A model generated the notes under the pieces. That model searched no databases. It was given only the letters and a program-made list of their open reading frames with translations, and was not told the origin of the DNA. A DNA stretch of 64,000 bases from an uncultured bacterium. Lineage in GTDB: Bacteria > Patescibacteriota > Minisyncoccia > UBA6257 > 2-01-FULL-56-20. The position numbers were made by a program, and so were the translations under genes. Where the stretch lies: the NCBI GenBank assembly GCA_963844965.1, contig CAWJQC010000008.1, positions 92,185-156,184 on the forward strand, in the 5' to 3' direction. Below are positions 11,765 to 59,206 of this stretch, piece after piece (position 1 is the first letter of the stretch; every line of letters begins with the position of its first letter).

Positions 11765-12181
11765 TTAATAAACCCAGATTCCAATAGCAAGCAGGATAAT
11801 CCGCACGAGCATAAAGGCAATTAAGTGGAGCATATAAAATATACCCTTTTCGAACATATCAATGCCCCAAATTTTGAAACAGATAAGAATGACGGCGGAG
11901 TGGACGATAAGGTAAGAGAAACTGCCAATTATCCGGTTGACAGATGGAGGAAGGCCGTTGGATTGGCGCATCCTTCCGAAAGTCATTGCGGTAAAAACGA
12001 CAGAAACCAACACGAGGAAGATACCGATTACGATCGTTGGGATGAGGGGTGAAATAAACGATTGCCACAATTGCACGAAAGGCGCATCAAGGGCGTTAAA
12101 TATCGGCTGGAGCATTTGGGTCGCCGAGGCGACAGCGCTGGAGGAATACACTGGGAAGATAACCGGCGGTGTAGATGTCAT
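11765..12181 (-). CDS. hypothetical integral membrane protein
   Basis: 138 aa, 4 hydrophobic segments. Confidence 0.45.
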   Translation of the reverse strand: MTSTPPVIFPVYSSSAVASATQMLQPIFNALDAPFVQLWQSFISPLIPTIVIGIFLVLVSVVFTAMTFGRMRQSNGLPPSVNRIIGSFSYLIVHSAVILICFKIWGIDMFEKGIFYMLHLIAFMLVRIILLAIGIWVY

Positions 12182-12246
12182 CCCAGCAACATACAGCAGT
12201 TATGGCGGGCTGGTCAATTGGTGGCCGCGGGTTATATAATATCTTT

Positions 12247-13482
12247 AATGAAAATCGAGAGCCAAAAACTCAACGTAACCGAGGCGTTTAAAAACTTCTA
12301 TTACATCGTCCCGCCGTATCAGCGGGAGTATGTTTGGAAGGAGAGAAACGTTGCCCAGTTATTTAACGATATTTACGACGAATATACCAACGATAAAAAC
12401 TCCGAATACTTTATCGGCAGTATCGTCGTAAATAAGCGTGAGGATGGCACATACGAAGTGATCGACGGCCAACAGCGATTAACCACTTTATTTATTAGTC
12501 TTTGTGCGCTTAAACGTGTGTTCAAAAATTCCCAAGATCATTTAAGCGTTATAGAAAATCTGCTCACTTCCCCGACGACGAACGATAAAGGCGAAATCAT
12601 CCGCAGCTCCCATCTTGAACTGCAATATGAAGGCACAGCAGACATTTTACGCGATATTTTGAATGACAAGGAATTAAGCAAAAAAACGTCTGGTTCGGCA
12701 GAACACATCAAAGAAGCCCTCGAAACCATCCTCGAATACCTGAACGCAAACTTCAAAACAGAAAATGACCGAACGCGGTTTTATGGATATTTTATGCACA
12801 AGGTAAATTTTGTGCAGATTGAAACGCCGAGCGTGAGCGACGCTTTGAAAATTTTTGAAACGATCAATGAGCGCGGCGTTGGCCTGAATCCGATGGATTT
12901 GCTCAAAAATTTGATATTTCAGCAATTGCCACGCGACGAGTTTCAAAAGGTTAATGTCGAATGGAAGAAAATAACGAGGACGTTGGAAAAGAATGGGCAG
13001 AAGCCACTCCGCTTTTTACGCTACTTCATAATGGCCAACTATCAGGTCAAGGATACTAAAGACGTCGAGGTTGTGCGTGAGGACGAGATTTACGACTGGG
13101 TGGTAAGACACGCCGAGGTTTGCGGCTATAGGAAAGATCCATTCGGGTTTGTGGGAAAAATCGCCACAGATGCCGAAGCCTACGTTTCATTTTTCAACGG
13201 TATGACGCTGGAGGGCAAGAATAGCGTCGAATTGGAAAACATCAGGAGCTTGGGCGGCGGTGCATTCAGCCAACATTTAGTTATGCTGCTTGCGGCCAAA
13301 GAGTTGCCCGAAGACCTTTTTCTTCATCTCGTTCGACAGGTGGAAAGCTTATCTTTTACTACTTCATTACGAAAACTCCCGCGAAAGCACTGGAAGCCCG
13401 TTTTTCCCGATGGGCGGATGATTTGCGTGATGTAGCGGGCGATGCAGATCAAAAAGCCGCCCTCAATAAATTCATAATGTAA
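12247..13482 (+). CDS. DUF262 (ParB-like nuclease / GmrSD-BrxU N-terminal domain) protein, frameshifted near 13345 and ending inside the IS3 terminal repeat
   Basis: N-terminal YYIVPPYQREYVWK…VIDGQQRLTTLF is the DUF262 signature (DGQQR). The alternate frame after ~13350 reads …LIFYYFITKTPAKALEARFSRWADDLRDVAGDADQKAALNKFIM*. No DUF1524/HNH-like C-terminal domain is present. Confidence 0.7.
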
Positions 13483-13534
13483 AGGATAGGTTTCTTTAGA
13501 CAGTGATTCGACGGCTTTTTGCCGTTTTTTTTCG

Positions 13535-14317
13535 TTAAGCCGCAATCTTCTCGGCAAACACGGACGGCGGCATCTTGAGGGCGGAGTGGATCCGCGTGTG
13601 GTTGTACTGCCACAAGGTGCTGTAGATCTCCGCCACGAGCTCGCCGAAGGTCCCGAACCGGTTGGGATCACCGAGGTCAATCTTGAACTTGTCATAGAAC
13701 GATTCCTGGTAGCCGTTTTCCCATGGGGCACCGGGCCGCGACCGCGAGATCGTGATGCCACAGTCCCCCAGTGTATCGGTGAACGCTCGTGCCTTGTACT
13801 CGCTGCCGTTGTCCGAATGGAAGATGACCGGATGCGGATGGTGGAAAAGCGCGTTGGCCAGGGTCTGTATCGTGAGGGGCGATCCTTTCCGCAACGCCAC
13901 ATGGACGCCCATCAATCGTCTCGTGAAAAGATCGAGTATCGTGGACACGTACACTTTCTTGCCGCGATACAGGAACTCCGTGAAATCGGTTGCCCAGACG
14001 TGGTTCGCGTACGAGGGCATGATGGCAAGTAAGAGGTTCGGAAAGGCCCGCGATGCCTTTGATTTCCGGTATTTCCTGCCTCGCCTCCGGTACGGCCTTA
14101 TGCCGAAGATTCGCATGACGCGCTGCGCTCGCGGACGGCTCACGCCCAGAGCTTGTCCCAAGCGCCGGGAACCGTATGCCGGATGGCGCTGCAATTCTTC
14201 TTCCATGCGGATCTTGAGCGCCCAATCTTTCTTGTCCTGCCGTGATACGTAGTAGAGCGATGCCCGCGAGACGCCCATGGCCCGCGCCATGGCGGACTTG
14301 TTCCGCTTTTCCGTCAA
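13535..14317 (-). CDS. IS3-family transposase OrfB (DDE integrase core, rve domain), expressed as OrfAB fusion by -1 frameshift
   Basis: HSDNGSEYKARAF…ITISRSRPGAPWENGYQESF (DDE/rve). The -1 frame from the CCAAAAAAAG heptamer gives KELTEKRNKSAMARA, which continues OrfB. Confidence 0.8.
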   Translation of the reverse strand: MTEKRNKSAMARAMGVSRASLYYVSRQDKKDWALKIRMEEELQRHPAYGSRRLGQALGVSRPRAQRVMRIFGIRPYRRRGRKYRKSKASRAFPNLLLAIMPSYANHVWATDFTEFLYRGKKVYVSTILDLFTRRLMGVHVALRKGSPLTIQTLANALFHHPHPVIFHSDNGSEYKARAFTDTLGDCGITISRSRPGAPWENGYQESFYDKFKIDLGDPNRFGTFGELVAEIYSTLWQYNHTRIHSALKMPPSVFAEKIAA

Positions 14318-21281: not shown

Positions 21282-21923
21282 CTATGGCAAAGTAATTCGC
21301 GGAGGCGACGATTTTCTCTCCATCCTCGAACCATCCAATTTCGGAAAAAGCATGAGAAGAAGTGAGGATGCGATCAAATTTAGAATTGCCGCCACGGCAA
21401 AAGTCGTTCTAAAGCCATAAGCATCGGCAATTATCCCGCCAATCGCGCCGCCGACGGCAGTGGAAACGGTCAGACCGAAAACGCTGAATATGCTCCACTC
21501 AACACCCTCGGAAACCTTGTCAACGTGATGCGCGAAGATCGTATAGTAAGCAGCCATAAGACAAGCATCGCCGACCCCGCAGACGGCTTCCATTACGTAT
21601 AACTGCCAGGTAAACTTTATGAACATTAAGGTTAAGGGATAAACAACGCCTATCGCGCAGCCCAAAAGCATCACGCGGAAATCGTCTTTTTCCCCGGATT
21701 TTCTGTCTATTCTTCTCGCAATCGGTATCTGGAGAATTGATTTCACTATCGCGTAGATGGCGATCGCGAAACCAGCCGTTCTTAGGCTCGCCCCGACGAG
21801 CGTGCCCGTGATGAAAACCGCGAAAAGCGGCGCGAAAAGTCCGCCGCTCGCGTTCAGGATAAACAGGAAAAAAAGCAGGAGTTCAATTACCCTATTTATG
21901 GAAATGTTCAGTTTTATTCTCAT
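21282..21923 (-). CDS. MFS-type transporter-like membrane protein (6 TM; possibly a half-size or truncated MFS)
   Basis: Hydrophobic 6-helix pattern. Start ATG (plus cat 21921-21923) lies inside the MITE-like repeat; the track N-terminal extension RPISNGM comes from that repeat. Confidence 0.45.
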   Translation of the reverse strand: MRIKLNISINRVIELLLFFLFILNASGGLFAPLFAVFITGTLVGASLRTAGFAIAIYAIVKSILQIPIARRIDRKSGEKDDFRVMLLGCAIGVVYPLTLMFIKFTWQLYVMEAVCGVGDACLMAAYYTIFAHHVDKVSEGVEWSIFSVFGLTVSTAVGGAIGGIIADAYGFRTTFAVAAILNLIASSLLLMLFPKLDGSRMERKSSPPRITLP

Positions 21924-22054
21924 CCCGTTAGAAATAGGGCGCAACGCCGCCGCTCGTCCTCTTTATTATTTAATATTCGGCCATTTTGTTGATGTAATAT
22001 CCGCAAAGCGTCCGCGCCTGCCTGCCGGCAGGCAGGATTTCTAACGGGACCCAT
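21919..22054 (-). mobile_element. MITE-like element copy 1 (TIR TCCCGTTAGAAAT; flanks ATGGG/ATGAG) between the clpB-like stop and the MFS start
   Basis: On the minus strand: ATGGG-TCCCGTTAGAAAT…ATTTCTAACGGG-ATGAG. Contains the 20-bp palindrome at 22017-22036. Confidence 0.6.
22017..22036. repeat. perfect 20-bp palindrome CCTGCCTGCCGGCAGGCAGG (copy 1 of 3)
   Basis: Identical at 31099-31118 and 38023-38042. Confidence 0.9.
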
Positions 22055-24629
22055 TACTGTTTTACTATCTGATCTCCCAGTTCCACAAAACCGACCTCGT
22101 CGCCCTGCGTCGTGAGTTTTATATGGCTCCCGTGCTCAACTTTTTTCTCCAAAATTTTCTGCGCGAGCGGCGCGCGCAATTTTTCTTCTATCACGCGCCG
22201 CAGAGGTCTCGCGCCGAACGCGGGATCATATCCGATCCGCGCGAAAAGTTTTATAACCGCCGGATCAATTTCCATCTTTATCCCCTGCTCGCTCACCAAC
22301 TCTGCGACATCCTTAAGATTCAGCGCGACTATTTTTTCCAAATCCGCCGGCTCTAAATTTTTGAACACGACAATCCGCGAGAACCTGTTCAAAAGTTCTG
22401 GTTTGAAAATGTCGGTCAGTTTTCTCTTCAGATAGTCGGCGATCTGCGCCACCGATTGACCCTGGCTCAGGGCGTCATTGATGATATCCGAATGGGCATT
22501 AGAGGTGGCGATTATAATCGTGTTCTCAAAATCAACCGTGCGGCCGAGATTATCCGTGAGCCGGCCATCGTCAAACACCTGCAAAAATAAATTCAAGATA
22601 TCAGGGAAGGCCTTCTCAAATTCATCCAAAAGGATCAAACTATACGGCTTTTGCAGAATCGCGTCCGTCAAAGCTCCGCTTACCTGGCCATCGGGCGTTC
22701 CGATAAACCTGAAAAAACTCTGCTTATCCTGATATTCCGTCATGTCAAACCTCACCATTTCCTTATCCGAACCGAATTGGACCTTCGCCAAGATTTTGGC
22801 GAGTTCGGTTTTGCCGACGCCGGTCGGACCGACGAAAAGAAAACTGGCGATCGGTCCGCCTGGCCGCGCGAGCCCGCTCCTGTACTCGCGCAGGGCATCC
22901 GCCACGACCCCCACCGCCTCCTCCTGGTCGATCATCCGTTCGTGTATTGTCTCCTCCAACTTGAGAAGTTTTTGCGCCTCGGCTTCGGTTGCCTCGTGCA
23001 GCGGAATATTTACCTTTGCTTCGGCCACGCTTACCACCCTGTCCGGCCCCACGTACTTTTCCCCGCGCCTTTGGGCGTCAACCAAAGCGCTCTTCAATAT
23101 CTCCTCGGCGCTTGAAGGCAGAAATTTACTGCGCAAATATTTTTTTGCGAGCACAACCGCCTTCTTTATCGCGCCGAAACTTATGGTTACCCTGAACTGA
23201 CGCTCGAGTATCAGACTCTCGTAGGTTAAAATTTTTTCCGCGTCGGCGACGCTCACTTCGCTCACCCTGATTATTTCAAACGCGCCAGCAAAATCGCTAC
23301 GCGGCTCTATGAACTGCTTGAAGTCGCGCGGAAAAGTGAGCCGATCACCGGAAAGGCATTGTTTGTTATTATCGGCATCAAGGCATCAGCGGCGGAAATG
23401 TACGCGGCGCCGGAGGTGCGCACCAAGTTGTGTATGTTCGGGATGTAAATGATGATGTTCCCGGCGATGGTGATTTCTTCAATTATGTCTTTGAGCCGCG
23501 CGGTCAGTACTTCGGGCGGCGCGCCCGCCACAAGACTTTCAAGCTCAAGCGACACCAACCGCTTGTCAAACAACGCCGGCGGAACTTCGTCCTTAACAAG
23601 TTCCGCGGCGAGGTGAGAAATTATGGTTTCCTTGCCGATGCCGGCCTCCCCGACCAAAATAGCGTTGGGATTTATCGGCCGCGCCAACACTTCCACCAGC
23701 CGTTCAAACTCCTCTTTGTGACCGATCAAAAAACCGGTCTGATTCTGGCGGGCAAGATCGGTAAAGTCGGTTGAATATTTATCAAGGGTAGGCGTCGGCC
23801 GCGACGTCCACGCCCTATTCATTATGCGGTGTCGTATTTTCGGAGCACCAAACACAAAAAAGCCGCCGAGCGTCACTGGAATGCGGCGACTCATACTATG
23901 ACCCAGGGAACTGAAGATCATAGCGCGCTCAAGGTCGCCTACCTCGATCCCAAAAATGTTGAAAAGTCGGCTCATGGCTTCGTTTTTGACGAGAGGCATC
24001 GCCGAAAACAGGTCACTTGATTCTATGAAGTTGTGGCTCGCGCCCATGGCCTGTTCCAAGGCCAAAAGCACGAGCGTTTCCGCGTTCGCCAATCTATCTT
24101 CTTTGGAAATCGCGGACCACTCCCCGCTTTTTGAACTCTCGCCGAGAAACGCTTCTGTTTTCTGTTTGAATTCCTCTGGTTTTACATCAAGACGCTTTAA
24201 CCCCTCTTCTATGTCGGACAAATTTAGAAGCTGATGCGCCGTTTCCAGAAAGAAATTCTGCTTGGTGATCATGCTCCGGTCAAATGCCCTCTCCAGGGCG
24301 GCGAACGCCTTCGGCCGCAGATAACTCGCCATATTAACTCTGCCTCTTTTCGGCAACTCTATAAGCGGCTTGTCGCCCTCGTTCAGGTGGAGAAAGCGGT
24401 CAAACAGGAACAAAGCGAGAAATATTCCCGCATAGCGCAGTCCCCAGACCCCGGAGAGAAGAAACGAAGCCGCCGTAGCCGCAGTCACGAGGTACATCAC
24501 ATAACTTAGAACTCTTACGAATAATCTGCCCGGAAACGTCATCAAGAGTCGCGGGTCCTTATAACAGAAAACCGGACCCTCTCCAGCGACGCCCGCTGAC
24601 GCTGTTCCTTTACTATTTTCTTCGCTCAT
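22054..24629 (-). CDS. ClpB/ClpC-like two-domain AAA+ ATPase with N-terminal membrane anchor; split by a frameshift near 23265-23310
   Basis: ORF 23307..24629 has 2 N-terminal TM helices and a first AAA+ domain D1 (ILVGEAGIGKET…IIIYIPNIHNLV; Walker A/B look degenerate). ORF 22054..23265 is a second AAA+ domain D2 with intact GPTGVGKTELAK Walker A, LILLDEFEKA Walker B and the sensor-2 motif GARPLRR. Confidence 0.7.
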
Positions 24630-24988
24630 GGAGAATAGGAATGGAAATTAGTAGCGGCGAGAATAATAATAACCGGCGGAATCAAAACCCAAACAAGGTA
24701 AATAACAAGGAACACCAATCCCAAGAATAAATAGAGAACGCCGCCGATAAGTATCCTCCCTAAACGAAAGATCACGCCGAGAACTCTCCCGACTATCGTG
24801 TAATCCTTGTATAACGGCTGGAAGAAATATTTTATGGTAAGGCGAATCGCCAAAGACTTGTCCACCTCCTCCAAGATGGAAACAAACTTATGCGCCAAAA
24901 GACGCGAGCCGTCCACGTACCAGTGATGGAAAAAATCCAAAATCCTGTAAATGGCGCGATTGATTAAATAAACCAAGGCGAAGTTCAT
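24626..24988 (-). CDS. small membrane protein (hypothetical), translationally coupled upstream of the Clp-like ATPase
   Basis: 120 aa, two TM helices; ATGA overlap. Confidence 0.35.
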   Translation of the reverse strand: MNFALVYLINRAIYRILDFFHHWYVDGSRLLAHKFVSILEEVDKSLAIRLTIKYFFQPLYKDYTIVGRVLGVIFRLGRILIGGVLYLFLGLVFLVIYLVWVLIPPVIIILAATNFHSYSP

Positions 24989-25119
24989 TTATTTAAATTA
25001 TACCCGTTTGAGCCCAAGAGAACAAAAGATGCGCACGAAGGACGAAAATAAAAAAACCCGCGCATTGGTGCAAGCAATGGCGAGTATTCATATGAACACC
25101 GACTATCTCCACGGACCAA

Positions 25120-25521
25120 TCACTGTCTTTTCAGTTTGTGTTTTTCGCAACGCTTCACGAAAAGACTTGTCGCGCAAATCGCGCCATCGGGTAGCCGTAC
25201 CAAAAATGGGAGAGATTCGGTAAAATAGAATAATCCTGTGTAATCTATCCACGAACCAAGCAAGCCGAATAGCATGTACTCAGGATCAAGCCCTTTCGTT
25301 TTGTAGAAAGCCAGAAGCTCTTCAAACGTAAACTGCGTCCAACGACCCTTTTCCTGGAAGAAACGGACCAGTGCCACGGCGGCTTCTTCCACCTCGCACT
25401 TTCCGAACGTCTCTGAAAGTCCGTCGGAGAGATCAATATCGCTTGGCCTGGTTTTTTGGCTTGGTTTGTCGGCGGATTCACTGATCACACTAAAACTAAC
25501 CCCCTCTGCTGTTTTAAACAT
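25120..25521 (-). CDS. hypothetical protein
   Basis: 133 aa ORF, no recognisable motif. Confidence 0.3.
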   Translation of the reverse strand: MFKTAEGVSFSVISESADKPSQKTRPSDIDLSDGLSETFGKCEVEEAAVALVRFFQEKGRWTQFTFEELLAFYKTKGLDPEYMLFGLLGSWIDYTGLFYFTESLPFLVRLPDGAICATSLFVKRCEKHKLKRQ

Positions 25522-26797: not shown

Positions 26798-28003
26798 GTG
26801 AAAATCGAAATTGCCTTCAAGGATTTCAAACTGCAATCCCTGAACGCGCTCCCGGTGGGAAAACGCATCCAGCGGATATCTTTGGGGATCAAAAAGGGCA
26901 TGGATTACCCCCGCGGTAAGGTTGGCAAATTCATCTTATCGCAATTCGGCACCATACACCTCGTAAGTCCGCTTCTTCCGGAAAGCATAGTCACGACAAA
27001 TTACGCGCTTTGCAATGAGGCGAGAGAACTGCTCGGCGAAATGTATGAATCCTGTGGCAAAGAAGCGCCGAAGGTGGCCTGCGGGAGTAGGGTAATTCCC
27101 GGTTCAAGCTTCGAAAAATCACGGCGTTTGGAAAGAAATGGTGTCGTTATCCCATTTTCCGGCGGGAAAGACGGCGCGCATCATTACCTGAAATCCATGA
27201 AATCCGGTCTTACCCCGCGCCTTGTCCATATTCGCAACATGAACCTCGCGTCCACTTCTGAAGAATTCGCGTGGGCGGGAAAACTTTCAAGTTTTCTTGA
27301 GGAAGATCTGGACATAATTCATCTGCACAACGGCGTACCCAAGAACGGCTTTGACACCATGAGATTCCGCGACATGTTCCTCGTCGCTCTGATGATCCCA
27401 TATAACCTCAAATACGGCGCCGAAAAAACGATCATAGAGGGCTTTGCCGACGAACTTGAGGGCAACATGGAGCTTTTCAGCGGCAAAGAAAGTGAAATGA
27501 AAAAATTTAACGAGCTGCTCAACGATTTGGGATTCCCGATAAAAATTTCGTGGTACAACATGCCGGAATGGCGAGTTTTGAAATGGCTGATCCTGAACCA
27601 TCCCGATGTTCTCGCGAATACTAACAGCTGTTTCGCGTATCCACTCTTGAAACTCCAGCAGAAGGATAGGGTAAAAGAACTTTTTCCCGGCTTCCCTTTC
27701 TTTGAAAGCCAATGCGGAATGTGCTTCAAGTGTTTCATAGTGAACCTCGCGCGAATCGCTTTTGACGACGTAGATTGTCCGGCAGAAATTTTGAGAAGAT
27801 ATGTAATTACCGCCGATGCGTGGCTTGCGAAGAAAATCAAGAATTTGGGCGCGTATTACAATGACCCGAGTTTTTCCCGCCTGCTCGCGCTAACCAAACA
27901 AAAGATACAGACAGTTCAGCCGCCGACCAAGGGTCCGGCGGTTTTAGTTTTCGGCCGCGCGCCAGAAATCCTCTTATTGCGCCCCGGCGGTATTCCGTGT
28001 TAA
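26798..28003 (+). CDS. PP-loop (adenine-nucleotide alpha-hydrolase superfamily) ATPase with C-terminal Cys cluster (QueC/TtcA-like), GTG start
   Basis: PFSGGKDGAHH PP-loop (SGGxD) motif; C-terminal CGMCFKC. Confidence 0.45.
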   Translation: MKIEIAFKDFKLQSLNALPVGKRIQRISLGIKKGMDYPRGKVGKFILSQFGTIHLVSPLLPESIVTTNYALCNEARELLGEMYESCGKEAPKVACGSRVIPGSSFEKSRRLERNGVVIPFSGGKDGAHHYLKSMKSGLTPRLVHIRNMNLASTSEEFAWAGKLSSFLEEDLDIIHLHNGVPKNGFDTMRFRDMFLVALMIPYNLKYGAEKTIIEGFADELEGNMELFSGKESEMKKFNELLNDLGFPIKISWYNMPEWRVLKWLILNHPDVLANTNSCFAYPLLKLQQKDRVKELFPGFPFFESQCGMCFKCFIVNLARIAFDDVDCPAEILRRYVITADAWLAKKIKNLGAYYNDPSFSRLLALTKQKIQTVQPPTKGPAVLVFGRAPEILLLRPGGIPC

Positions 28004-39629: not shown

Positions 39630-42151
39630 TCATAATTTTTCCATATTCCCCCAGTCCTTCCCGCAGGAAACGTTCACCACAAGCGGCACTTTCAGGGTGT
39701 ATATTTTTTCCATTGTGCCTCCAATCAGCTCTGCAGTTTCTCTTATCTTATCATCGCGGACCTCGAACAGCAATTCATCGTGAATAGAGAGAATCAATCG
39801 CGCGCCAGCGCCCCAAATCCCGGCCTCTTCCAAAACCTTACGCGATCTAATCATTGACATTTTTATAATATCGGCGCCAAATCCTTGGATTGGAAAATTT
39901 ATCGCCGCCCGCTCCGCTTCGGAGACCAAGCGCGGCGAATCCGTGGCTGCACCGAAGAGATAGCGCCTCCGGCCGGTCGGCGTCCGCGCGAAACCGGAAG
40001 TTCTAACTTCACTTTTTATTTTCTCCTGCCAAACTTTTATCTGCGAAAATGCCTTAAAATACGCAGTGATGAATTCGCGTGCTTTTTCTGTTGTGAGGCC
40101 GCTCGTCCTTGCGAAAGACGGCGCCCCCATGCCATAGATCAGCCCGAAATTAAGTGTCTTCGCGAGACGCCGCTCAGCTGGACCGACCTTTTCAAGCGGA
40201 ATTCCAAAGACGCGCGAAGCGGTGACTTTATGGATATCCAGTCCCCTCTCAAAAGCTTTTATCATCTGCGAATCACCGGTAAGCGAGGCGAGGATGCGAA
40301 GTTCAATTTGGGAATAGTCAAAAGCGAGAAACGAAGAATCCCTTCGGCGCCTCAAAGGCCGCCCGCAGTTCCTTGGTCCAGATCGATTCCTGGGGAATGT
40401 TCTGCAAATTCGGCGTCTGCGAACTCAATCTGCCAGTAGCCGTTCCCGTCTGCACGAATTCCGTGTGAAGCCGTTTACCGGCTGAGAGTTCCAAAAGCGG
40501 GCGCGCGTATGTGGATAAAATCTTGAAATTCTCGCGATAATCCAAGAATCAAACCGACTATCTCGTGCGCCCCGCGCAATTCTTCCAAATTAGCCGCGCG
40601 CGTTGTGCGCATCCCGGTCTTCGTCCTCCGGACGCCATCACCGAGCCCCAGCTTGTCAAAGATAATCTCGCCGACTTTCTTGGGCGAATTGATGTTAAAT
40701 TCTTCTCCGGCAGCCGCGTAAATTTCTTTCGCGAGGCCGTCTAATTTTTTCGTGATTTTTTCTTCAAGCGTCGTGAGTTTCTCCAGCGAAATCAAAATGC
40801 CGTGGCTTTCCATTTCCGCCAAAATTCGCAGAAGCGGCATTTCAATTTCCTCAAAGACTTTAGCAAGGCCATACTCATTGATTTTTCTCGCGGCAAAATC
40901 ATACGCGTACTTCAAGTCGGCAATGTCACCTCTCCACTCTTTGTTAAAAAATTTCTTGAATACCGCCGGCGGCGCGTATTGCTTGAAATCCGGGTCAATC
41001 ATCCAGAAAGCGACGCCTAGGTCAAAGTACGGCGCGCTTAAATCTTTGCCTTGCCTCCATAGATTTTTGAGCGTTTTTTTCAGATCAAAACCGACTTTGG
41101 GTTTTGAAGAAAGATAAGCCGCAGAATATGCCTCGCCGTCTCTTATAAAAATAACTTCTTGTTTTTCGGCATTTTGCGCGACGGCTGAGCCGACTTCCGG
41201 CATGGGAAAAATCCGGCCCTGCTCGCCCCGTTTGCGGCGGACCATTGGGGCTGGCGTTTCCTTTCCCGGCTCGGGGACGTGCACCTCCATTCCACCCTCC
41301 AATCTCTTGAGTAGTGTCTCAAAACCGAGTTTTCGGAAATATGTTTTTATCGGGGAATAATTTTCTTCAATTTTCAGTTCATCAATGTTTTTTACCTCAA
41401 GCGGCACCCCCCGGTTGAGAATCACGAGGCTTCTCGCCAGTTCCGCTTCCTTCCTAAATTGACCCAATTTTTTCTCCAGCTTCGAATCGGCTGCCAAATT
41501 TTTATACGCGTTTTCAAGCGTCCCGAAGCGCTGAAGTAGTTCGGCGGCGGTCTTCGGACCGATCCCAGGAACGCCTTTTATGTTGTCGGATGTGTCGCCA
41601 ACGAGCGCTTTGTAATCAATAAGTTGCGGCGGCCGAAGGCCATAGCGTTCGCGCACGGCCTCTTCATCGTAGAGCATCGTCTCGCTCACGCCTTTTTTGA
41701 AGGTCCTCACCAAAATTTTTCCGTTCTCCACGAGCTGGAGAGTGTCCAGGTCACCGGTAAGTATTATAACTTTAATATCTTTTTCCTTGCTGAATTTCAC
41801 GGCGAGCGTCGCGATCAAATCGTCGGCTTCGTAGCCGGGAATTTCAAAAGTTTTTATGCCGAAGACGGAAAAAGATACGTGAGCATCGGCAAGCTGCGGC
41901 ACGAGATTGTCCGGCGTCGCCGGCCGCTGTGCTTTATACTCGGCATATTCTTTCTCGCGGAATGTCTGCTCCGGCCTGTCAAAAAGCGCCGCGACGTAGT
42001 CCGGTTTATCCTCGCGCCAAAGCTTAAGCAAGATGCTCGCTAAGCCGTAAATCGCATTTATCGGCCTACCGTCCAGGGTCGTGAGCGGCGGCAAAGCATG
42101 AAAGGAACGATGAATTATGGAGTTAGCGTCTATTAAAAGAAGGGTTTCCAC
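39630..42151 (-). CDS. polA: DNA polymerase I, split into three ORFs by two frameshifts (about 40475-40545 and about 40318-40355)
   Basis: 40475..42151 is the 5'-3' exonuclease domain (…GYEADDLIATLA…) plus the N-terminal part of the polymerase. 40318..40545 and 39630..40355 carry motif A (DYSQIELR), motif B (RRLAKTLNFGLIYG) and motif C (ILSIHDELLFEV). Confidence 0.85.
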
Positions 42152-45670: not shown

Positions 45671-47363
45671 TTAATCTGTCTGCTGTTTCCACTCTATCCT
45701 GCCGGTAACCGACTCCACTTCGTCAAAACTCGTTAAACCCTGAAGGACCTTCAGAATTCCGTCGGCTTGCATGCTCACCATTTCCTGGGAGTCCGCGAAT
45801 TTTTTCAGGGCCACCTCCGATGCCTCTTTCAGTATCACTTCTTCCAAGGCAATGCCTCCCTCCAAAAATTCGTACACTCCCACGCGGCCGCGGTAGCCGA
45901 GGCCGCTGCATTTCGCGCAACCGACTGGTTCGTAAACATTTATTTTCTCATATGCGGCCTGGTTCACCCGTTTCGGTAAATTATCCAAAAATTTTTGTAT
46001 CTTGGCTCGGAAGCCACCGTCCAACGCTTTCGCCTTCTTGCATTCGGCACAAAGGCGCCGCACGAGACGCTGGGCGATAATCAAATTGAGCGCCGGCCCG
46101 ATACTCACGGCTTTCACGCCCAAATTTATCAGGCGTGGGACGGCACCGACGGCATCATTCGTGTGAAGCGTTGAGAGGACCAGGTGGCCGGTAAGCGAGG
46201 CTTGAAGCGCAATATCCGCAGTATCCAAATCCCTGATCTCACCTACGAGAATTATGTCCGGGTCCTGACGCACGACCGCCCGCAACCCCTTCGCGAACGT
46301 ATAGCCGGCCTCGGAATCAACCTGCGTCTGTTCTATGCCCGGAATCCTGTACTCTATTGGATCTTCAAGGGTTATTATTTTTATTTCGGGGCTGTTAACC
46401 CTCTTCAAAAACGCGTAAAGGGTGGTGGTTTTCCCGGAGCCGGTGGGACCAGTGTTTAAAATAAGGCCGTTGGGCTTTTCTATTTGGCGATTTACAATAA
46501 CGAGGATCGTCTTCCCTTATGCCCAGCCCGCCGAGGTCAATCGCGATAACATCCGGGTCCAGGATCCGCAGGACAATGGTCTCGCCGAATTCCGCCGGTA
46601 TAACCGAGGCGCGAATTTCTATTTCCTTTTGCCCGAAACCTATCGTGAACCGACCGTCCTGTGACTCGCCTTTTATATTTATCTTCATTCCGGAGAGAAG
46701 CTTGAGGCGCGAAACCAAGGACTCGTAATTCTTAAGCGGCAACTCCTCGAAAATATCGTGCAACAAGCCGTCAACTCTGTAGCGCATGCGCGCGTTTTTC
46801 TCCCCGGCCTCAAAATGTATGTCGGACGCCTTAAGACCCATGGCGCCGGCCAGGACAACCTCGATAAGAGTGACCGGGGTCGTCTTTGTAAAATCCAATT
46901 TTCCTATTTCGCTTTTTACCGCGGAGAAATTAACGAGTATCGCGGAGAGTTCTTCAAGCCGCTTTTTTTCGATTTTCACCTTGCCGGTAATCTCTTCCGC
47001 CTCCGGTTTGACAAATTTATAAAAGCGCCAGGCGTCGCCGAGTCCCGAAAGTGACGTGACGAACGTTTTTACCTCGTATTTTTTATTTTCCAGGTCTTTG
47101 ATAATTTTTTGCACCGCGGGCGCGCGGGGATCGGCGGCGGCTAAAGCCACTCTCCTGACCTTGACCTCAATCGTTGCGACCCTCGCGCCGCGCGCCACAT
47201 CTTCCAGAACAAGTTTTAACGCGTCCGTGGAAACGGGGGTCTTGGATAAATCCACATAAGGAAACCCTGCGTCACTAGCCAAACGTTGCGCCGCCCGCTC
47301 CTCGCCTTCGCGGTGGAGAACGGTAAGTTTACTTTGCAGAACGGATGGCTTTTGAGGATCCAT
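45671..47363 (-). CDS. GspE/PilB-family secretion ATPase (type II/IV pilus assembly), split by one frameshift near 46500
   Basis: N-terminal GspII_E_N-like domain (…DAGFPYVDL…). The alternate frame supplies NTGPTGSGKTTTLYAFLKRVNSPE (Walker A). The C-part has the tetracysteine motif CAECKK…CAKC. Start ATG (plus cat 47361-47363) is inside MITE-like copy 2. Confidence 0.8.
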
Positions 47364-47483
47364 CCCGTTAGAAATAGGACGCGGATAAAGCCACCGCGCC
47401 ATTTTTAATTTTTTGTAGTGCTCTGACCATTTACAATGATTCTTCTATTTTGCAACGCATCCGCAATTTCTAACGGGATCCAT
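47359..47483 (-). mobile_element. MITE-like element copy 2 (TIR ATCCCGTTAGAAAT; perfect 5-bp direct repeat TCCAT/ATGGA) at the gspE/pilB start codon
   Basis: On the minus strand: ATGGA-TCCCGTTAGAAAT…ATTTCTAACGGG-ATGGA. Confidence 0.65.
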
Positions 47484-50826: not shown

Positions 50827-53251
50827 ATGGCGATTGTCAAAAAAATAATTTTGATTATATTCATAATCGGCGCCGTAGGCACGGCAACCTCTGTTTTGGC
50901 ATATTTTTATTTTGCTAGAGATCTTCCTACTATGGAGCAGATAAAAGACAGGCAAATAAGTCAATCTACAAAAATCTACGATAAGACGGGAACGGTGCTT
51001 TTGTACCAAATAAGCGGCTCGGAGGACAGGACCATCGTCCCATTCGAAAGCATCCCGCAGAATTTGAAGGACGCAACCATTGCTATTGAGGATAAAAATT
51101 TTTACAACGAACCCGGATTCTCGTGGAGCGGCTATCTGCGAGCCTTTATCACGAACCTCGTTCACGGGCAAATACTACAAGGCGGTTCAACAATTACCCA
51201 ACAGTTGGCAAGGAACACCTTCCTCACGACGGACCAAACCGTTACCAGAAAAATCAAAGAGCTCATACTGGCCATAAGAACTGAACCGCTACTATACCAA
51301 AGACCAGATACTTGCGCTCTACCTCAACGATATCCCGTACGGCCCTACCGCCTACGGAGTGGAGGAGGCCAGCCAAGAATATTTCAACAAATCCGCGCGG
51401 GATTTGAACCTCGCCGAAAGCGCCACGCTTGCCGCGATTCCCAAAGCCCCAACTTACTATTACCCCTGGGGAAATCACGTGAGCGACCTCATAAGCCGCG
51501 AGAAACTGGTCCTGGAAAAAATGCTTGAACTCGGGAAAATCACACAGAAGGAATACGACGGAGCGGTGAAATATAAAATCGTTTTCGCGCCGCAGGGGAA
51601 AGAAATAAAAGCCCCGCATTTCGTGATGGCTGTTCAGGATTACCTTGCGCAAAAATATGGTGAGGATATGGTGCGTGAGGGTGGCCTTCGCGTCGTGACT
51701 ACTCTTGACTGGAATCTTCAGCAGATCGCAGAAAAAGCGGTCGCCGACGGTGCCGCGCAGAACGAATCCCTCTACCAAGGAAAAAACGCGGCGCTCGTCG
51801 CCGAAGACGCGAAGACCGGCCAGATACTCGCCCTGGTCGGTTCGCGCGACTATTTTGACACGAAAAACGACGGTAATTTTGATGTCGCAACACAAGGATT
51901 ACGCCAGCCGGGTTCTTCCCTAAAACCATTCGTTTACCTCACGGCGTTCGAAAAAGGGTACACTCCCGACACCGTTGTCTTTGACGTGCCGACCGAATTC
52001 GCGGCTAACAATCCCGTCTGCCCGCCGAATCCCGATTACAAAAACGACAATCCGCAATGCTTCCATCCAGAAAATTTTGACGGCCAATTCCGCGGACCGG
52101 TGACCCTAAGGCAAGCCCTTGCTCAATCTATAAACGTCCCCTCGGTAAAAGTTCTTTACCTTGCCAGCTTGAACGATTCGGTGAAGAACGCCTACAACTT
52201 CAGCCTGACGACGCTCACCAACCCGAACCTCTACGGTTTGTCGCTGGTTTTAGGAGGAGGAGCTGTTAAATTAATTGACCTGGTCGGAGCCTATTCGGCT
52301 CTTGCCCAGGACGGCATCAAGCATGCACAGTCGATGATACTGGAGGTTAGTGACGCCACAGGGAACACGTTGGAGTCTTATCAGGACGAGAACACCAAAG
52401 TCTCCGATCCACAACCAATAAGATTGGTCAACAACATCCTCTCCGACGCGGAAGCGCGCAGTGGGCTTTTTCAAAACAGTTTAGACCTCACCGTCTTTCC
52501 GGATCACGATGTGGCGCTCAAAACTGGGACATCCAACGACTACCGTGACGCCTGGGCCATCGGCTATACTCCCTCGCTCGTTGTCGGCGTCTGGGCCGGA
52601 AACAACGACAACTCTCCGATGCAGCGTCATGGTTCAAGTATTCTGGCCGCCGTCCCGATATGGCACGCTTTCATGGCCGAAGCCATAAAGAATCTGCCGC
52701 TTGAAACATTCAATCGTCCCGACCCAACTAACCCGCAAAAGCCGATCTTAGCCGGAAATTACCTGTACAACAAACAGATTCATACAATCCTTTATTATGT
52801 TGACAAGACGGACCCCGAAGGCCCGCCCCCGACAAATCCATTCAACGATTCCCAGTTCGTGAACTGGGAATACGGAGTTCTCGCGTGGGCCAAAGATAAT
52901 CTTCCCGACTTTTCTAGCTATAACCAGTCAATAACCACAACAAACCAGGCGACAAGCACGTCCGTAAATATCCCGCCAAAGATTGAAATAAAAAACCCTG
53001 TGGTCGGTAGTTTTATAAGCGGCCCGATAAATATCAACGCCGCAATCACGGCTTCCGCTCCGATTGCTAAAATAAGGGTCTATTTCAACAACCAACTCGT
53101 CGACGATTCAGGTCTTAGTGGTAGTTTAAACTACAATTTTAACTGGTCGTTCACGCCCCGAGACACACAACCGCAAAATTTGATCCAAGTGGAAGTAGTA
53201 GACCAAAACAACATTTCAACGCGCGAGGGAGTAATTGTATATGGCCAGTAG
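50827..53251 (+). CDS. class A penicillin-binding protein (transglycosylase + transpeptidase), split by a frameshift near 51290-51320
   Basis: GT51 motifs EDKNFY and GGSTITQQLA in ORF 50827... The transpeptidase body (…SLKPFVY…KTGT…) is in 51359..53251, and its frame continues upstream as TKDQILALYLNDIPYG. Confidence 0.85.
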
Positions 53252-53266
53252 CCGATTCTAAATTCG

Positions 53267-54380
53267 TCAACTGTTCGCTATGGGTTTCAGAATATAAAGA
53301 TACGAATTATCGTTGGGTGATTTTATAAGAGCTGGTTCGCTGTCGCTTGTGATCCCCAAAAATACTTCTTCCGCTTTCAGGATTTTAATAACGTCGGCCA
53401 AATATCTCCAGTTAAAAATAGTTTTATTTGGTTTTCCTTGAATTTTCGCCGGCAACAGATATTTATTCTCACCAATAACCTGGTCAGACGATTCAACCTC
53501 TAGGACTTTTTTATTTTCCTGGATATTAAGGGTTGTCTCGCTGCTCCTTGTCCCAAAAATGCCGGCTAACTTCAGAGCTTCGGTAAATTCCTGTTTATTG
53601 ATTATGATTTCCGCGCCGAACTTTCTGGGTATTATCGCATTATAATCGGGGAAGTTTCCTTCGATCAGGCGCGAAAGGAATTCTAATTGCTCGGTTTTAA
53701 ATAATATTTGATTACTATCGTGGTAAATCCTGACGATATTCATTATTATTCAGGATTCTTATAAGTTCTTGAGTTGTTTTTAAAGGAATAAGAACTCTGA
53801 AATTTTCCTTGGAATTAGCGGTAAATTCTGAAGAGTTTATTGTCTTCTCAGCTAATCTAAAGCTGTCGGTTGCGGCTAATTTAATATTATTCACCGAAAA
53901 TTCAAACAAAACACTATTTAACTCCGGTCTCAAATCGGAGAATTGAGAGGCGACAAGTACTTGATTAAGTGCTTCTCTGAATATTTCTGTTTTTATTTCT
54001 ATATATTCTTCGTTATTTTTTATCTTCGGAGTTATAGGAAAATCATCAGCCGCAAGACCGTGGACCGAAGCGTTATAATTATCGGTTTTTATTTCCAATT
54101 TATTTCCCCTTTTTTCTATATTTAATCTTTCGCTTTGAATATTATTTATCAGATTATAAATCACACTTATCGGCACGGTGAACTTTCCGTTTTCAATAAT
54201 TTTGCCTGATATATTACAACTTATTGCAATTTCTAAATTAGTAGTTGTTAGTCTTATTTTATTATTCTCAACCTCAAAGAGAACGTTTTTTAATATCGGC
54301 AAATTCAGATTGTCTCCGGCTCCTCGTTCGGTCACCGCAAGGCCGTCCTTTAGGTTTGTTTTAATAACTATAAATTTCAT
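53267..54380 (-). CDS. dnaN: DNA polymerase III beta sliding clamp, split by a frameshift near 53715-53745
   Basis: N-terminal MKFIVIKTNLKDGLAVTERGAG… is typical of DnaN. The C-part is in ORF 53267..53743. Confidence 0.8.
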
Positions 54381-54501
54381 TTATTTATATTAATACTTAT
54401 TGTTGTAGTTATTTTTATTATTATACTGTTAGTTGTGTGAATAAGTAAATAAACTTTAATTTACAGTTTCAATTTTTAATTTCTTTTTTGTTCATATCTT
54501 G

Positions 54502-56051: not shown

Positions 56052-56186
56052 GGATAACGGAATGTCGGTTACATACCAGCCCAAAAAGAGAAAACGGCGC
56101 CGAACGCATGGTTTCAGGACGAGACAAAGGACCAGCGGCGGACGGAACGTTTTGAGCCGCCGGAGACAAAAAGGCAGGCGCAGACT
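56052..56186 (+). CDS. rpmH: 50S ribosomal protein L34
   Basis: [44 protein letters not shown]; not in the ORF track (44 aa). Confidence 0.85.
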
Positions 56187-59194: not shown

Positions 59195-59206
59195 GGATTT
59201 ATATTT

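What the first reader, a model, noticed from the sequence alone, without database searches (positions are those of the whole stretch)
22054..24629. Membrane-anchored ClpB/ClpC-like AAA+ protein with degenerate first ATPase domain
The N-terminus has two TM helices ahead of Clp-N-like repeats. In D1, Walker A reads GEAGIGKET (Lys followed by Glu, not Ser/Thr), and Walker B is IYIPNIH instead of hhhhDE. D2 has intact Walker A/B and the sensor-2 GARPLRR. A membrane-tethered Hsp100 with an inactive D1 is atypical, and a small TM protein is translationally coupled upstream (24626..24988).
Basis: partly seen in the sequence, partly recalled or inferred. Interest (0 to 1): 0.5.

Follow-up and report, generated by a model that had tools for sequence, protein, structure and literature searches.

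The report
Membrane-anchored Clp-like ATPase with partner
A two-gene unit conserved across the tiny-celled Patescibacteria encodes a membrane-tethered relative of the ClpB/ClpC protein-unfolding motors that has lost one of its two engines and its usual substrate-gripping loops, and it always sits next to, or is fused to, a small membrane protein, so it probably works differently from any characterised Clp ATPase.

Summary
Two minus-strand ORFs (23307..24629 and 22054..23265) are one gene broken by a single missing base at 23336/23337. Rejoined, it gives an 858-aa protein that is colinear with about 840-aa single-ORF homologues. At least four other housekeeping genes in the window are split the same way, so the frameshift is most likely an assembly error.

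The protein has a transmembrane hairpin, a divergent Clp_N-like domain, D1 and D2. It has no M-domain and no ClpP-docking tripeptide.

- **D1:** it lacks the Walker-A Thr (GKE), both Walker-B acids (P-N/D), both arginine fingers and the pore-loop Tyr. It is nevertheless almost as conserved as D2.
- **D2:** all catalytic motifs are invariant. Its pore loop is 4 residues shorter, variable and never aromatic (0 of 115).
- **Partner:** the upstream 120-aa membrane protein overlaps the start codon (ATGA). It lies immediately upstream in nearly every related locus and is fused to the N-terminus in a sister clade (108 of 109), where D1 keeps its catalytic motifs.

My reading is a Patescibacteria-specific, ClpP- and Hsp70-independent membrane machine driven by D2 alone, with D1 as a structural ring. 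It probably acts through its partner rather than by classical threading. I found no publication describing it. It is a new variant of the Hsp100 family.

The parts
24626..24988 (-). Gene for the 120-aa membrane partner. AlphaFold predicts two long helices (3-46 and 65-117). The C-terminal part of helix 2 is transmembrane, and the invariant tip loop reads FFQPLYKDYT.
   Evidence: ORF. No Pfam, NCBIfam or PADLOC hit. 134 homologues, all labelled hypothetical. 440 clusters at 50% identity. AlphaFold pLDDT 88.6. Adjacent to the ATPase in nearly every locus and fused to it in a sister clade.
24997..25002 (-). Perfect TATAAT -10 box, with 8 nt between it and the partner's ATG (24988). This would give a leaderless or near-leaderless transcript start for the two-gene unit.
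   Evidence: Read directly from the sequence. The consensus scan did not score it because the -35 is weak. Functional role is inferred only.
25056..25075 (-). Terminator-like hairpin followed by a T-run. It would separate the upstream 133-aa ORF from the partner/ATPase unit.
   Evidence: The number of such sites in the region is not above shuffled expectation, so this is weak evidence.
23337..24629 (-). 5' part of the ATPase gene (residues 1-431): N-terminal tail, TM hairpin, N-domain, linker, and D1 up to ...PVIGS.
24390..24536 (-). TM hairpin (residues 32-80). The positively charged flanks (R35, R39, then D77-R78-H81) fit an N-in/C-in topology.
   Evidence: Hydropathy. AlphaFold helices 32-58 and 62-80. 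N-terminal hydrophobic segment in 114 of 115 members. Column counts.
23889..24344 (-). All-alpha N-domain (residues 96-247), a divergent Clp_N-like double repeat.
   Evidence: The TIGR02639 (ClpA) alignment starts at residue 111. Pfam Clp_N is sub-threshold. About 35 of the 50 listed PDB profile hits are Clp N-domains, but all at E 0.2-1. AlphaFold secondary structure.
23625..23651 (-). D1 Walker A, GEAGIGKET. The Lys is kept; the Mg-binding Thr/Ser is replaced by Glu.
23502..23528 (-). D1 pore-loop-1 equivalent, AGAPPEVLT, in place of AGAKYRGEF. There is no aromatic residue.
   Evidence: Alignment to ClpB 1qvr and ClpC 6em8. 0 of 115 members have an aromatic here.
23430..23456 (-). D1 Walker B equivalent, IIIYIPNIH, in place of hhhhDE. 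Asp is replaced by Pro and Glu by Asn (Asp in most relatives).
23336..23337 (-). Frameshift site. One base is missing between TCA (Ser431) and ACT (Thr432).
   Evidence: Other genes in the window are split in the same way.
22054..23337 (-). 3' part of the ATPase gene in the -1 frame (residues 432-858 plus the stop): rest of D1, D1 lid, D2 and D2-small.
23263..23298 (-). D1 arginine-finger region, SDFAGAFEIIRV, in place of DAALERRFQPV. R-R is replaced by G-A.
22807..22830 (-). D2 Walker A, GPTGVGKT (invariant).
22672..22701 (-). D2 pore-loop equivalent, GTPDGQVSGA, in place of GAPPGYVGYEEGG. It is 4 residues shorter, variable, and has no aromatic residue.
22615..22638 (-). D2 Walker B, LILLDEFE (D-E invariant).
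22396..22500 (-). Region where ClpA, ClpC and ClpX carry the ClpP-docking [LIV]-G-[FL] loop. Here it reads ...ALSQGQSV... (K-G-E in most relatives).
   Evidence: 0 of 115 family members and 0 of 79 locus proteins have the tripeptide.
22195..22215 (-). D2 sensor-2, GARPLRR. The D2 arginine finger R749 lies at 22384..22386.

Best explanation
**Shown.** The two ORFs are one gene for an 858-aa class-I Clp/Hsp100 derivative. Its layout is cytoplasmic tail, TM hairpin, divergent Clp_N-like domain, D1, D2. It forms a translationally coupled two-gene unit with a 120-aa membrane protein. The unit is conserved in Patescibacteria and is a single fused polypeptide in a sister clade.

**Inferred from the motifs.**
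- D2 is the only ATP-hydrolysing ring.
- D1 cannot hydrolyse ATP, because the Walker-A Thr, both Walker-B acids and both arginine fingers are gone. It is kept under strong purifying selection as a structural or assembly ring, in the way the inactive rings of NSF (D2) and PEX1/PEX6 (D1) are kept.
- The hexamer is held on the cytoplasmic face of the membrane with its N-domain/D1 face towards the bilayer, next to the TM helices and cytoplasmic helical stalk of the partner.
- It cannot dock ClpP (no hydrophobic-Gly-hydrophobic loop).
- It cannot be coupled to DnaK in the ClpB manner (no M-domain).

**Most likely mechanism (inference).** The canonical aromatic pore loop is missing from both rings across the whole superfamily. 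In D2 that loop is short and variable while the ATP site is invariant. ATP turnover in D2 therefore most likely drives a conformational or pulling action exerted on or through the membrane partner, or on clients the partner presents. This would resemble the Torsin/LAP1 or Bcs1 logic more than processive ClpB/ClpA-type threading.

**The frameshift** in this window is most likely an assembly indel, not gene decay.
For: **Family and architecture**
- Pfam finds AAA_2, ClpB_D2-small and AAA_lid_9, with no significant AAA hit over D1.
- NCBIfam ClpB, ClpA, ClpK, ClpG and ClpV models all score far below their cut-offs, for example ClpB 488 bits against 1232.
- HMMER alignments to ClpB 1qvr and ClpC 6em8 show each motif substitution, the 4-residue pore-loop deletion, the missing M-domain and the missing 7-residue ClpP-loop insert.
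- Foldseek top hits are ClpC, ClpB and ClpA.

**Conservation**
- 854 homologues, about 840 aa each, as single ORFs.
- At least 517 GTDB species genomes carry a relative; the 80 loci listed are labelled almost entirely as Patescibacteria lineages.
- D1 motif counts are and D2 motif counts.
- Majority-residue conservation is 0.81 for the D1 large subdomain and 0.87 for D2. No member has an aromatic residue in either pore loop (0 of 115).
- No ClpP tripeptide in 115 family members or 79 locus proteins, and the D1-lid to D2 spacing was a constant 98 residues in all 88 of 115 members where both anchor motifs were found.

**Partner**
- The partner lies immediately upstream on the same strand in 69 of 79 loci by a strict +/-150-nt window, and it also abuts the ATPase ORF in most of the rest.
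- It is fused in L080, L081 and P0354 and in 108 of 109 full-length members of the WWE3/Daviesbacteria clade.
- In that clade D1 keeps K-[ST] (96 of 109) and DE/EE (107 of 109), while the pore loops are still non-aromatic.

**Frameshift as artefact**
- polA, dnaN, a PBP1 gene and a T2SSE ATPase gene in the same window are also split.
- Both halves of this gene are equally similar to P0001 (0.80 and 0.83).
- An independent Logan contig of the same strain carries a different 1-nt indel.
Against: - No experiment exists on any member. Hexamer formation, nucleotide binding by D1 and the topology are all inferred.
- A conserved Tyr/Phe (Y410; 103 Y and 12 F of 115) sits in the D1 loop after Walker B. 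This is the secondary pore-loop region of ClpB, so it could still grip a polypeptide, and threading is not excluded.
- The D2 loop keeps a beta-branched or hydrophobic residue (T, V or I) at the position after the lost Tyr.
- I could not test whether these genomes lack ClpP, ClpX, ClpB or DnaK.
- Close relatives share a wider housekeeping synteny (HU, UDG, PolX, NUDIX), so adjacency alone is weak evidence there. The fusions and the universality of the partner carry the argument.
- I could not check the frameshift against reads.
Confidence: 0.5

Rival explanations
1. It is still a true threading unfoldase. On this view it is a ClpP-independent extractor or disaggregase for membrane proteins, functionally like the AAA module of FtsH or like Msp1/ATAD1. 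It would pull clients out of the bilayer through its axial channel using non-canonical contacts (D1 secondary-loop Tyr410, D2 loop T/V/I), with the partner acting as an adaptor or anchor.
For: - The Hsp100 fold is complete and the D2 motor is intact.
- N-terminal membrane anchoring places the substrate-entry face (N-domain/D1) against the membrane, as in FtsH. This is inferred.
- A conserved aromatic residue lies in the D1 loop after Walker B.
- The N-domain is retained.
Against: - The pore-loop-1 aromatic residue is absent in D1 and D2 in 115 of 115 close members. It is almost always absent in the fused clade too (2 of 109 and 7 of 109, not at the canonical position).
- The D2 loop is 4 residues shorter, and the position that replaces Tyr is variable (T, Q, A, S or K). 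That is not the pattern expected for a substrate-gripping element.
- In ClpB, ClpA and ClpX, mutating this Tyr abolishes translocation (established knowledge, not tested here).
Confidence: 0.27
2. The frameshift is genuine. In this organism the gene is either a recent pseudogene or is expressed as two polypeptides: a TM-N-D1' fragment, plus a D1''-D2 fragment starting at GTG 23265.
For: The assembled sequence does carry the frame change. ORF B has an in-frame GTG. One homologue locus (L047) is also interrupted.
Against: - Four other genes, including the essential dnaN and polA, are split in the same 64 kb. That points to an indel-prone assembly.
- There is no other lesion, and the two halves are equally conserved.
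- The break falls inside the D1 core sheet, where two separate fragments would not fold.
- A second assembly of the same strain has a different indel.
Confidence: 0.08
3. It is an ordinary ClpC/ClpA-type ATP-binding subunit of the Clp protease, as JGI and NCBI pipelines name it.
For: Source annotations read 'ATP-dependent Clp protease ATP-binding subunit ClpC/ClpA'. The protein is colinear with ClpA, with no M-domain.
Against: - There is no ClpP-docking tripeptide.
- Scores are far below the ClpA (431 vs 993) and ClpB (488 vs 1232) equivalog cut-offs.
- D1 is catalytically dead, there are no pore-loop tyrosines, and the protein is membrane-anchored.
Confidence: 0.03

Closest known systems
ClpA (class-I Clp/Hsp100, E. 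coli)
   Same: N-domain, D1, D2 and D2-small in the same order with no M-domain. One continuous HMM alignment covers residues 111-840 against TIGR02639 positions 8-733 and residues 281-839 against PDB 1ksf.
   Different: This protein has no IGL-type ClpP loop, no pore-loop tyrosines, a dead D1, an N-terminal TM hairpin and an obligate membrane partner. Its score is less than half the equivalog cut-off.
ClpB/Hsp104 disaggregase
   Same: Best overall sequence scores (1qvr, 392 bits; TIGR03346, 488 bits). The D2 catalytic residues are identical. Like ClpB, it has no ClpP loop.
   Different: The coiled-coil M-domain that couples ClpB to DnaK is missing, about 106 residues in 1qvr. Both pore-loop Tyr residues are absent, D1 is non-catalytic, and the protein is membrane-anchored.
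ClpC/MecB and ClpC1
   Same: Top structural matches (Foldseek). The N-domain profile retrieves ClpC and ClpC1 N-domains, though weakly.
   Different: It lacks the half-size M-domain, the VGF/AGF ClpP loop (the 7-residue insert is absent), an active D1 and the pore tyrosines.
Torsin ATPases with their membrane activators LAP1/LULL1
   Same: Torsins are AAA+ modules related to Hsp100 D2, are membrane-associated, lack aromatic pore-loop residues and depend on a transmembrane partner (general knowledge; review PMC5425593, found).
   Different: Torsins are single-ring, sit in the ER lumen and are eukaryotic. They lack their own arginine finger, which the partner supplies. Here D2 keeps its arginine finger (R749, invariant) and there is a second, inactive ring. 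No homology between the partner and LAP1 was detected. The resemblance is functional only.
Two-ring AAA+ proteins with one non-catalytic ring (NSF D2, PEX1/PEX6 D1)
   Same: One ring is retained and conserved for assembly, while the other does the work (established knowledge).
   Different: These belong to a different AAA+ clade, and their active rings keep aromatic pore loops and thread substrates.
Membrane-anchored AAA+ machines (FtsH, Msp1/ATAD1, Bcs1)
   Same: An N-terminal TM anchor places the ring at the cytoplasmic (or matrix) membrane face. Bcs1 works without classical threading.
   Different: These are single-ring classical-clade AAA proteins and are not Hsp100 members. FtsH carries a protease domain, and FtsH and Msp1 keep aromatic pore loops.

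Membership tests
Clp/Hsp100 class I (two-ring) superfamily | Tandem AAA+ modules, with the second of the AAA_2 type followed by the ClpB_D2-small domain, and a D1 lid of the AAA_lid_9 type. | tested here: met
   PF07724 at 3.7e-49, PF10431 at 1.5e-22 and PF17871 at 1.4e-6. PDB ClpB, ClpC and ClpA hits at E about 1e-88 to 1e-116. Foldseek top hits are ClpC, ClpB and ClpA.
Clp/Hsp100 class I superfamily | N-terminal Clp_N double-repeat domain. | tested here: inconclusive
   Pfam Clp_N is only sub-threshold (17.2 bits at best). The profile search against PDB lists mostly Clp N-domains, but at E 0.2-1. The ClpA model aligns from residue 111. AlphaFold predicts an all-alpha domain.
ClpB/Hsp104 | Long coiled-coil M-domain inserted in the D1 small subdomain (the Hsp70 coupling element). 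| tested here: not met
   ClpB residues about 416-522 have no counterpart. The spacing from the D1 lid to the D2 Walker A was a constant 98 residues in all 88 of 115 members where both anchor motifs were found.
ClpB/Hsp104 | Conserved pore-loop tyrosines in D1 (KYRG) and D2 (GYVG). | tested here: not met
   AGAPPEVL and GQVSG occupy these positions. No aromatic residue in 115 of 115 members.
ClpB/Hsp104 | Score above the NCBIfam equivalog cut-off (TIGR03346, 1232 bits). | tested here: not met
   488 bits.
ClpA / ClpC (ClpP-partnering unfoldases) | ClpP-docking hydrophobic-Gly-hydrophobic loop (IGL, VGF or AGF) in D2. | tested here: not met
   The 7-residue insert of S. aureus ClpC is absent. 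The tripeptide is absent in all 115 family members and all 79 locus proteins; the equivalent triplet is K-G-E or Q-G-Q.
ClpA / ClpC | Catalytically competent D1: Walker A GK[ST], Walker B hhhhDE and arginine fingers. | tested here: not met
   GKE, IPN(D) and G-A at these positions.
ClpA / ClpC | Presence of ClpP in the same genome. | not testable with these tools
   Whole genomes could not be retrieved. A motif scan found no ClpP-like gene in the 64-kb window.
ClpV / TssH (type VI secretion) | Score above TIGR03345 (885 bits) and a type VI secretion gene neighbourhood. | tested here: not met
   390 bits. The neighbours are HU, UDG, MFS, PolX and NUDIX.
Anti-phage defence ATPases (PADLOC: Dodola DolB, PDC-M37B) | Full-length match to the system's ATPase model, and presence of the cognate partner genes. 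| tested here: not met
   Only the AAA_2 core (about residues 540-720) matches. The partner and the neighbours give no hit.
Proposed new family: Patescibacteria membrane Hsp100 with partner | Partner protein or domain with the FFxPL[YF]xDY...GRxLGxxFRxxR motif, encoded immediately upstream or fused at the N-terminus. | tested here: met
   Window ORF 24626..24988, with a 4-nt overlap. Alignment A2. Adjacency. Fusions.

The most novel reading that the evidence does not exclude
The unit is a previously unrecognised, Patescibacteria-wide membrane motor. In this reading an Hsp100 ring has been repurposed from polypeptide threading to cyclic mechanical action on its own integral-membrane partner. 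Up to 24 TM helices per hexamer could form a gated assembly. Its job might be to move host-derived molecules, lipids or folded proteins across, or to remodel, the membrane of these episymbionts. That would make it a bacterial counterpart of the Torsin/LAP1 or Bcs1 principle, with D1 reduced to a nucleotide-free scaffold in Paceibacteria.
Probability: 0.15. Interest if true: 0.85.

Novelty: new variant of a known kind. Interest (0 to 1): 0.62.

Why it matters
Patescibacteria (the CPR) make up a large share of bacterial diversity and have tiny genomes. Even so, hundreds of species keep this roughly 2.9-kb two-gene unit, so it probably does something important. Public pipelines label it ClpC or ClpA, which implies a ClpP-dependent protease subunit that the sequence cannot be.

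For AAA+ mechanism, it offers a natural Hsp100 in which three things happen together:
- one ring is catalytically dead but conserved;
- the canonical substrate-gripping tyrosines are missing from both rings;
- the motor is hard-wired to a membrane partner, as separate genes in one clade and fused in another, with D1 still carrying its catalytic motifs in the fused clade.

That gives a ready-made evolutionary series for asking what an Hsp100 ring can do without threading. It also gives a candidate for an unknown membrane process in episymbiotic bacteria.

Tried and rejected
**Attempts that gave no answer**
- I tried to resolve the frameshift with an independent assembly. The Logan contig L001 (99.7% identical) ends at window 23538, about 200 nt short of the site, and carries its own 1-nt indel at 23727.
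- An exact 22-mer scan of JGI metagenome contigs found nothing.
- The look-up of encoding contigs for the partner returned only the same short contig.
- The small partner has no Pfam, NCBIfam or PADLOC hit. A fold search of its model against afdb50 was not available, and I did not search PDB with a bare helical hairpin because matches would be meaningless.
- Promoter and terminator consensus scans were no better than shuffles.
- Seven literature searches and one paper read found no description of this family. One query was rejected for syntax.
- I could not retrieve whole genomes, so the presence or absence of ClpP, ClpX, ClpB and DnaK is untested.

**Readings rejected**
- Programmed -1 frameshifting. 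A tRNA-Phe slip on CU_UUU_C would give ...GSLFPRDF..., but the homologues are uninterrupted, the family never has Leu at that position, and four other genes in the window are broken too.
- A defence-system reading. PADLOC matches are limited to the generic AAA_2 core.
- P0352, a 1540-aa hit to the partner profile, is a low-complexity repeat artefact.
Full report
**1. What is in the sequence**

On the minus strand, ORF A (23307..24629, 440 aa) is followed by ORF B (22054..23265, 403 aa) in another frame. ORF B's frame stays open upstream to about 23345. It reads ...TFPRDFKQFIEPRSDFAGAFEIIRV..., which continues the D1 domain that ORF A breaks off at ...NNAFPVIGS.

Reading TCA (Ser431, 23339-23337) and then ACT (23337-23335) amounts to restoring one missing base. 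This gives an 858-aa protein. The junction, FPVIGS|TFPRDF, matches the nearest homologues without gain or loss of residues (P0003: FPVVGSTYPRNY).

**2. Is the frameshift real?**

I could not check it against reads.
- A Logan contig of the same strain (L001, 99.7% identical) stops about 200 nt before the site and carries a different 1-nt indel at window 23727.
- A scan of JGI metagenomes for the flanking 22-mer found nothing.

The window itself is informative. At least four other genes are split between adjacent frames:
- a T2SSE/PilB-type ATPase (46395-47402 and 45671-46408);
- a class-A PBP (50827-51528 and 51359-53251);
- polA (40475-42151 and 39630-40355);
- dnaN (53715-54380 and 53267-53743).

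Two of these are essential genes. The two halves of the ATPase are also equally similar to P0001 (0.80 and 0.83) and carry no other lesion. I conclude that the frameshift is most probably an assembly indel. I treat the gene as intact, with a residual chance of about 8% that the break is real.

**3. Family and architecture**

Pfam recognises AAA_2 (593-752), ClpB_D2-small (759-838) and the D1 lid AAA_lid_9 (460-525). It finds nothing significant over the D1 core or the N-terminus.

NCBIfam models all match far below their cut-offs:

| Model | Score (bits) | Cut-off (bits) |
|---|---|---|
| ClpB | 488 | 1232 |
| ClpA | 431 | 993 |
| ClpK | 414 | 1900 |
| ClpG | 398 | 1900 |
| ClpV | 390 | 885 |

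The ClpA model aligns in one piece (residues 111-840). ClpB and ClpC align in two pieces that skip their M-domains.

Residue-level alignments to T. thermophilus ClpB (1qvr) and S. aureus ClpC (6em8) give the following motif comparison:

| Element | ClpB/ClpC | This protein |
|---|---|---|
| D1 Walker A | GEPGVGKTAI | GEAGIGKETI |
| D1 pore loop | AGAKYRGEFEERLK | AGAPPE-VLTARLK |
| D1 Walker B | ILFIDELH | IIYIPNIH |
| D1 arginine fingers | ALERRFQ | FAGAFE |
| D2 pore loop | GAPPGYVGYEEGGQLTE | GTPDGQV----SGALTD |
| ClpC insert with ClpP-docking AGF | present (7 residues) | absent |
| M-domain | about 106 residues (ClpB), about 50 (ClpC) | absent |

An AlphaFold model of the 81%-identical P0001 (mean pLDDT 78, pTM 0.73) shows these elements:
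- two long helices, 32-58 and 62-80 (pLDDT about 90), which coincide with the hydrophobic stretch;
- an all-helical domain at 96-244;
- a disordered linker at 249-274;
- the two AAA+ modules.

Foldseek places the model with ClpC, ClpB and ClpA.

The N-domain is Clp_N-like but very divergent. Pfam Clp_N is sub-threshold. A profile of the domain retrieves mostly Clp N-domains from PDB, but only at E 0.2-1.

**4. These are family traits, not decay**

A search with the N-terminal 526 residues found 854 relatives. The best 120 are almost all 815-866 aa single ORFs, and sources name them ClpC, ClpA or 'Clp protease ATP-binding subunit' from Patescibacteria, Paceibacteria, Liptonbacteria or Minisyncoccia.

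In an alignment of the window protein with 114 full-length relatives:
- **D1:** Walker A reads G-E-A-G-I-G-K-E (K-E in 111 of 115). Walker B reads I-L-Y-I-P-D-I-H (Pro 105; Asp 95, Asn 12). The pore loop reads A-G-A-P-P-E-E-L. The arginine-finger positions read G-A.
- **D2:** Walker A, Walker B, sensor-1 Asn, arginine finger and sensor-2 are invariant or nearly so. The residue that replaces the pore Tyr is T, Q, A, S or K.
- **Pore loops:** no sequence has an aromatic residue in either pore-loop-1.
- **ClpP loop:** none has a hydrophobic-Gly-hydrophobic tripeptide in the ClpP-loop region.
- **Selection:** the D1 large subdomain is almost as conserved as D2 (majority-residue fraction 0.81 against 0.87), so D1 is under purifying selection despite having no catalytic residues.
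- **Membrane anchor:** an N-terminal hydrophobic segment is present in 114 of 115. A conserved juxtamembrane motif (D-P-R-L-x-M-T-x-x-G-R-x-x-V-R) precedes it.

A scan of one genome per GTDB species found at least 517 genomes with a relative. The 80 loci listed are labelled almost entirely as Patescibacteria lineages, and two odd labels look like mis-binned contigs. One is the complete 562-kb genome AP024682.1.

**5. The partner**

The 120-aa ORF 24626..24988 ends in TGA, which overlaps the ATPase ATG (ccATGAgc). It has no Pfam, NCBIfam or PADLOC match. Its 134 close relatives are all labelled 'hypothetical'. A profile search of 1.84 billion representatives finds 440 clusters, nearly all 100-125 aa long.

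AlphaFold (pLDDT 88.6) predicts two long helices, 3-46 and 65-117. They are joined by the most conserved segment, FFQPLYKDYT..GR.LG..FR..R. The C-terminal half of helix 2 is strongly hydrophobic.

In 79 related loci that have upstream DNA, a homologue lies on the same strand ending within +/-150 nt of the ATPase match in 69. In most of the others it abuts the start of the ATPase ORF. No other neighbour is universal: a half-size MFS gene, PolX, NUDIX, L20/IF3 and UDG each recur in only about 30-50 of 83 loci.

In L080, L081 and P0354 the partner is the N-terminal domain of the ATPase itself. It is followed by a single further TM helix and then the N-domain. A search with P0354 shows this is a whole clade (WWE3, Daviesbacteria, Microgenomates): 108 of 109 full-length members carry the partner domain at residues about 10-110.

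In that clade D1 keeps K-[ST] (96 of 109) and DE or EE (107 of 109). Even so, the pore loops are still non-aromatic: 2 of 109 in D1 and 7 of 109 in D2, none at the canonical position. The fusion is Rosetta-stone evidence that the partner and the ATPase work as one unit.

The fusion also constrains topology. The partner's last TM helix must exit the cytoplasm, and the next TM helix must return. This places the partner's helical stalk and its conserved loop on the cytoplasmic side, next to the ATPase.

**6. How it most likely works**

*Shown:* the architecture, the motif states, the conservation, and the adjacency and fusion of the partner.

*Follows from established AAA+ knowledge:*
- A ring without a Walker-B glutamate, without the Mg-binding Thr and without arginine fingers does not hydrolyse ATP.
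- A protein without the [LIV]-G-[FL] loop does not dock ClpP.
- A protein without the M-domain is not regulated by DnaK as ClpB is.
- Pore-loop tyrosines are required for translocation in ClpB, ClpA and ClpX.

*Inference:* the protein forms a ring on the cytoplasmic membrane face with its N-domain/D1 side towards the bilayer. D1 is a structural ring, as in NSF-D2 or PEX1/6-D1, and D2 is the motor. The D2 pore loop is short and variable while the ATP site is invariant. I therefore favour, at about 50%, a non-classical action on or through the membrane partner over processive threading, in the way Torsin/LAP1 or Bcs1 work.

The main rival, at about 27%, is that it still threads membrane-protein clients using other contacts. 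One candidate is the conserved Tyr/Phe at position 410, in the D1 loop after Walker B.

**7. Comparison with the known, and novelty**

It is a member of the class-I Clp/Hsp100 superfamily. It fails the defining tests for ClpB (M-domain, tyrosines, score), ClpA/ClpC (ClpP loop, active D1, score) and ClpV (score, context). PADLOC matches to DolB and PDC-M37B cover only the generic AAA_2 core.

Seven full-text searches and a check of the CPR protein-family paper (PMC6744442) found no description of a membrane-anchored Hsp100 or of this partner in Patescibacteria. Absence from that library is not proof of absence.

I rate it a new variant of a known kind. It is a distinct, mis-annotated Hsp100 subfamily with a new architecture and an obligate membrane subunit.

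**8. Limits**
- No experiment supports any functional statement.
- Oligomeric state, D1 nucleotide binding, membrane topology and the interaction itself are predictions.
- The presence of ClpP, ClpB or DnaK in these genomes could not be tested.
- The promoter and terminator assignment for the two-gene unit (TATAAT 24997-25002; hairpin 25056-25075) is read from the sequence only.

Noticed in passing
window 45671-47402 (-), 50827-53251 (+), 39630-42151 (-), 53267-54380 (-): Four more genes are split between adjacent reading frames: a T2SSE/PilB-like ATPase, a class-A penicillin-binding protein, polA and dnaN. With the Clp-like gene, that makes about one frame break per 13 kb, which is typical of uncorrected indel errors in the assembly.
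   Followed up: partly
window 53267-56700: dnaA (54502-55914, -) lies next to dnaN, and the lowest-GC stretch of the window (GC 0.365 at 54-56 kb) is here. This is probably the chromosomal replication origin region.
   Followed up: no
window 12062-14317: A GmrSD-type restriction endonuclease gene (12062-13435, +) sits beside an rve-family integrase (13535-14317, -). Overlapping ORFs in other frames suggest a small mobile or defence islet, possibly also affected by frameshifts.
   Followed up: no
window 61643-63379 (-): A 578-aa TraG/VirB4/HerA-like P-loop ATPase (PF19044, PF12846). Its neighbouring ORFs (57944-61596) have no Pfam match. This may be a conjugation- or secretion-like cluster.
   Followed up: no
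window 21282-21944 (-): A half-size (220 aa) MFS_1 protein is encoded 110 nt downstream of the ATPase. The same gene holds this position in 33-35 of 83 related loci, so it may belong to the same transcription unit in part of the clade.
   Followed up: partly
window 24997-25002 and 25056-25075 (-): A perfect TATAAT lies with 8 nt between it and the partner's ATG, which suggests a leaderless start. It is preceded by a hairpin plus T-run after the upstream 133-aa ORF (25120-25521). That ORF has no family match.
   Followed up: partly
window 26798-28003 (+): A 401-aa ORF with no Pfam hit at E<=1e-5 contains an SGGKDG motif reminiscent of PP-loop ATP pyrophosphatases.
   Followed up: no
L047 (4510-7086); L058; L081: The homologue in L047 is also interrupted by a frame change. 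L058 is labelled 'Nanoarchaeota' and L081 'Gammaproteobacteria', yet both carry the typical Patescibacteria partner-plus-ATPase arrangement, so these contigs are probably mis-binned.
   Followed up: no
P0354 and P0391-P0509 (WWE3, Daviesbacteria/Microgenomates): In the fused clade, 11 of 109 proteins have Asn after the D1 Walker-A lysine (GKN), and 38 of 109 have E-E instead of D-E in Walker B. D1 therefore appears to drift in several lineages, not only in Paceibacteria.
   Followed up: partly
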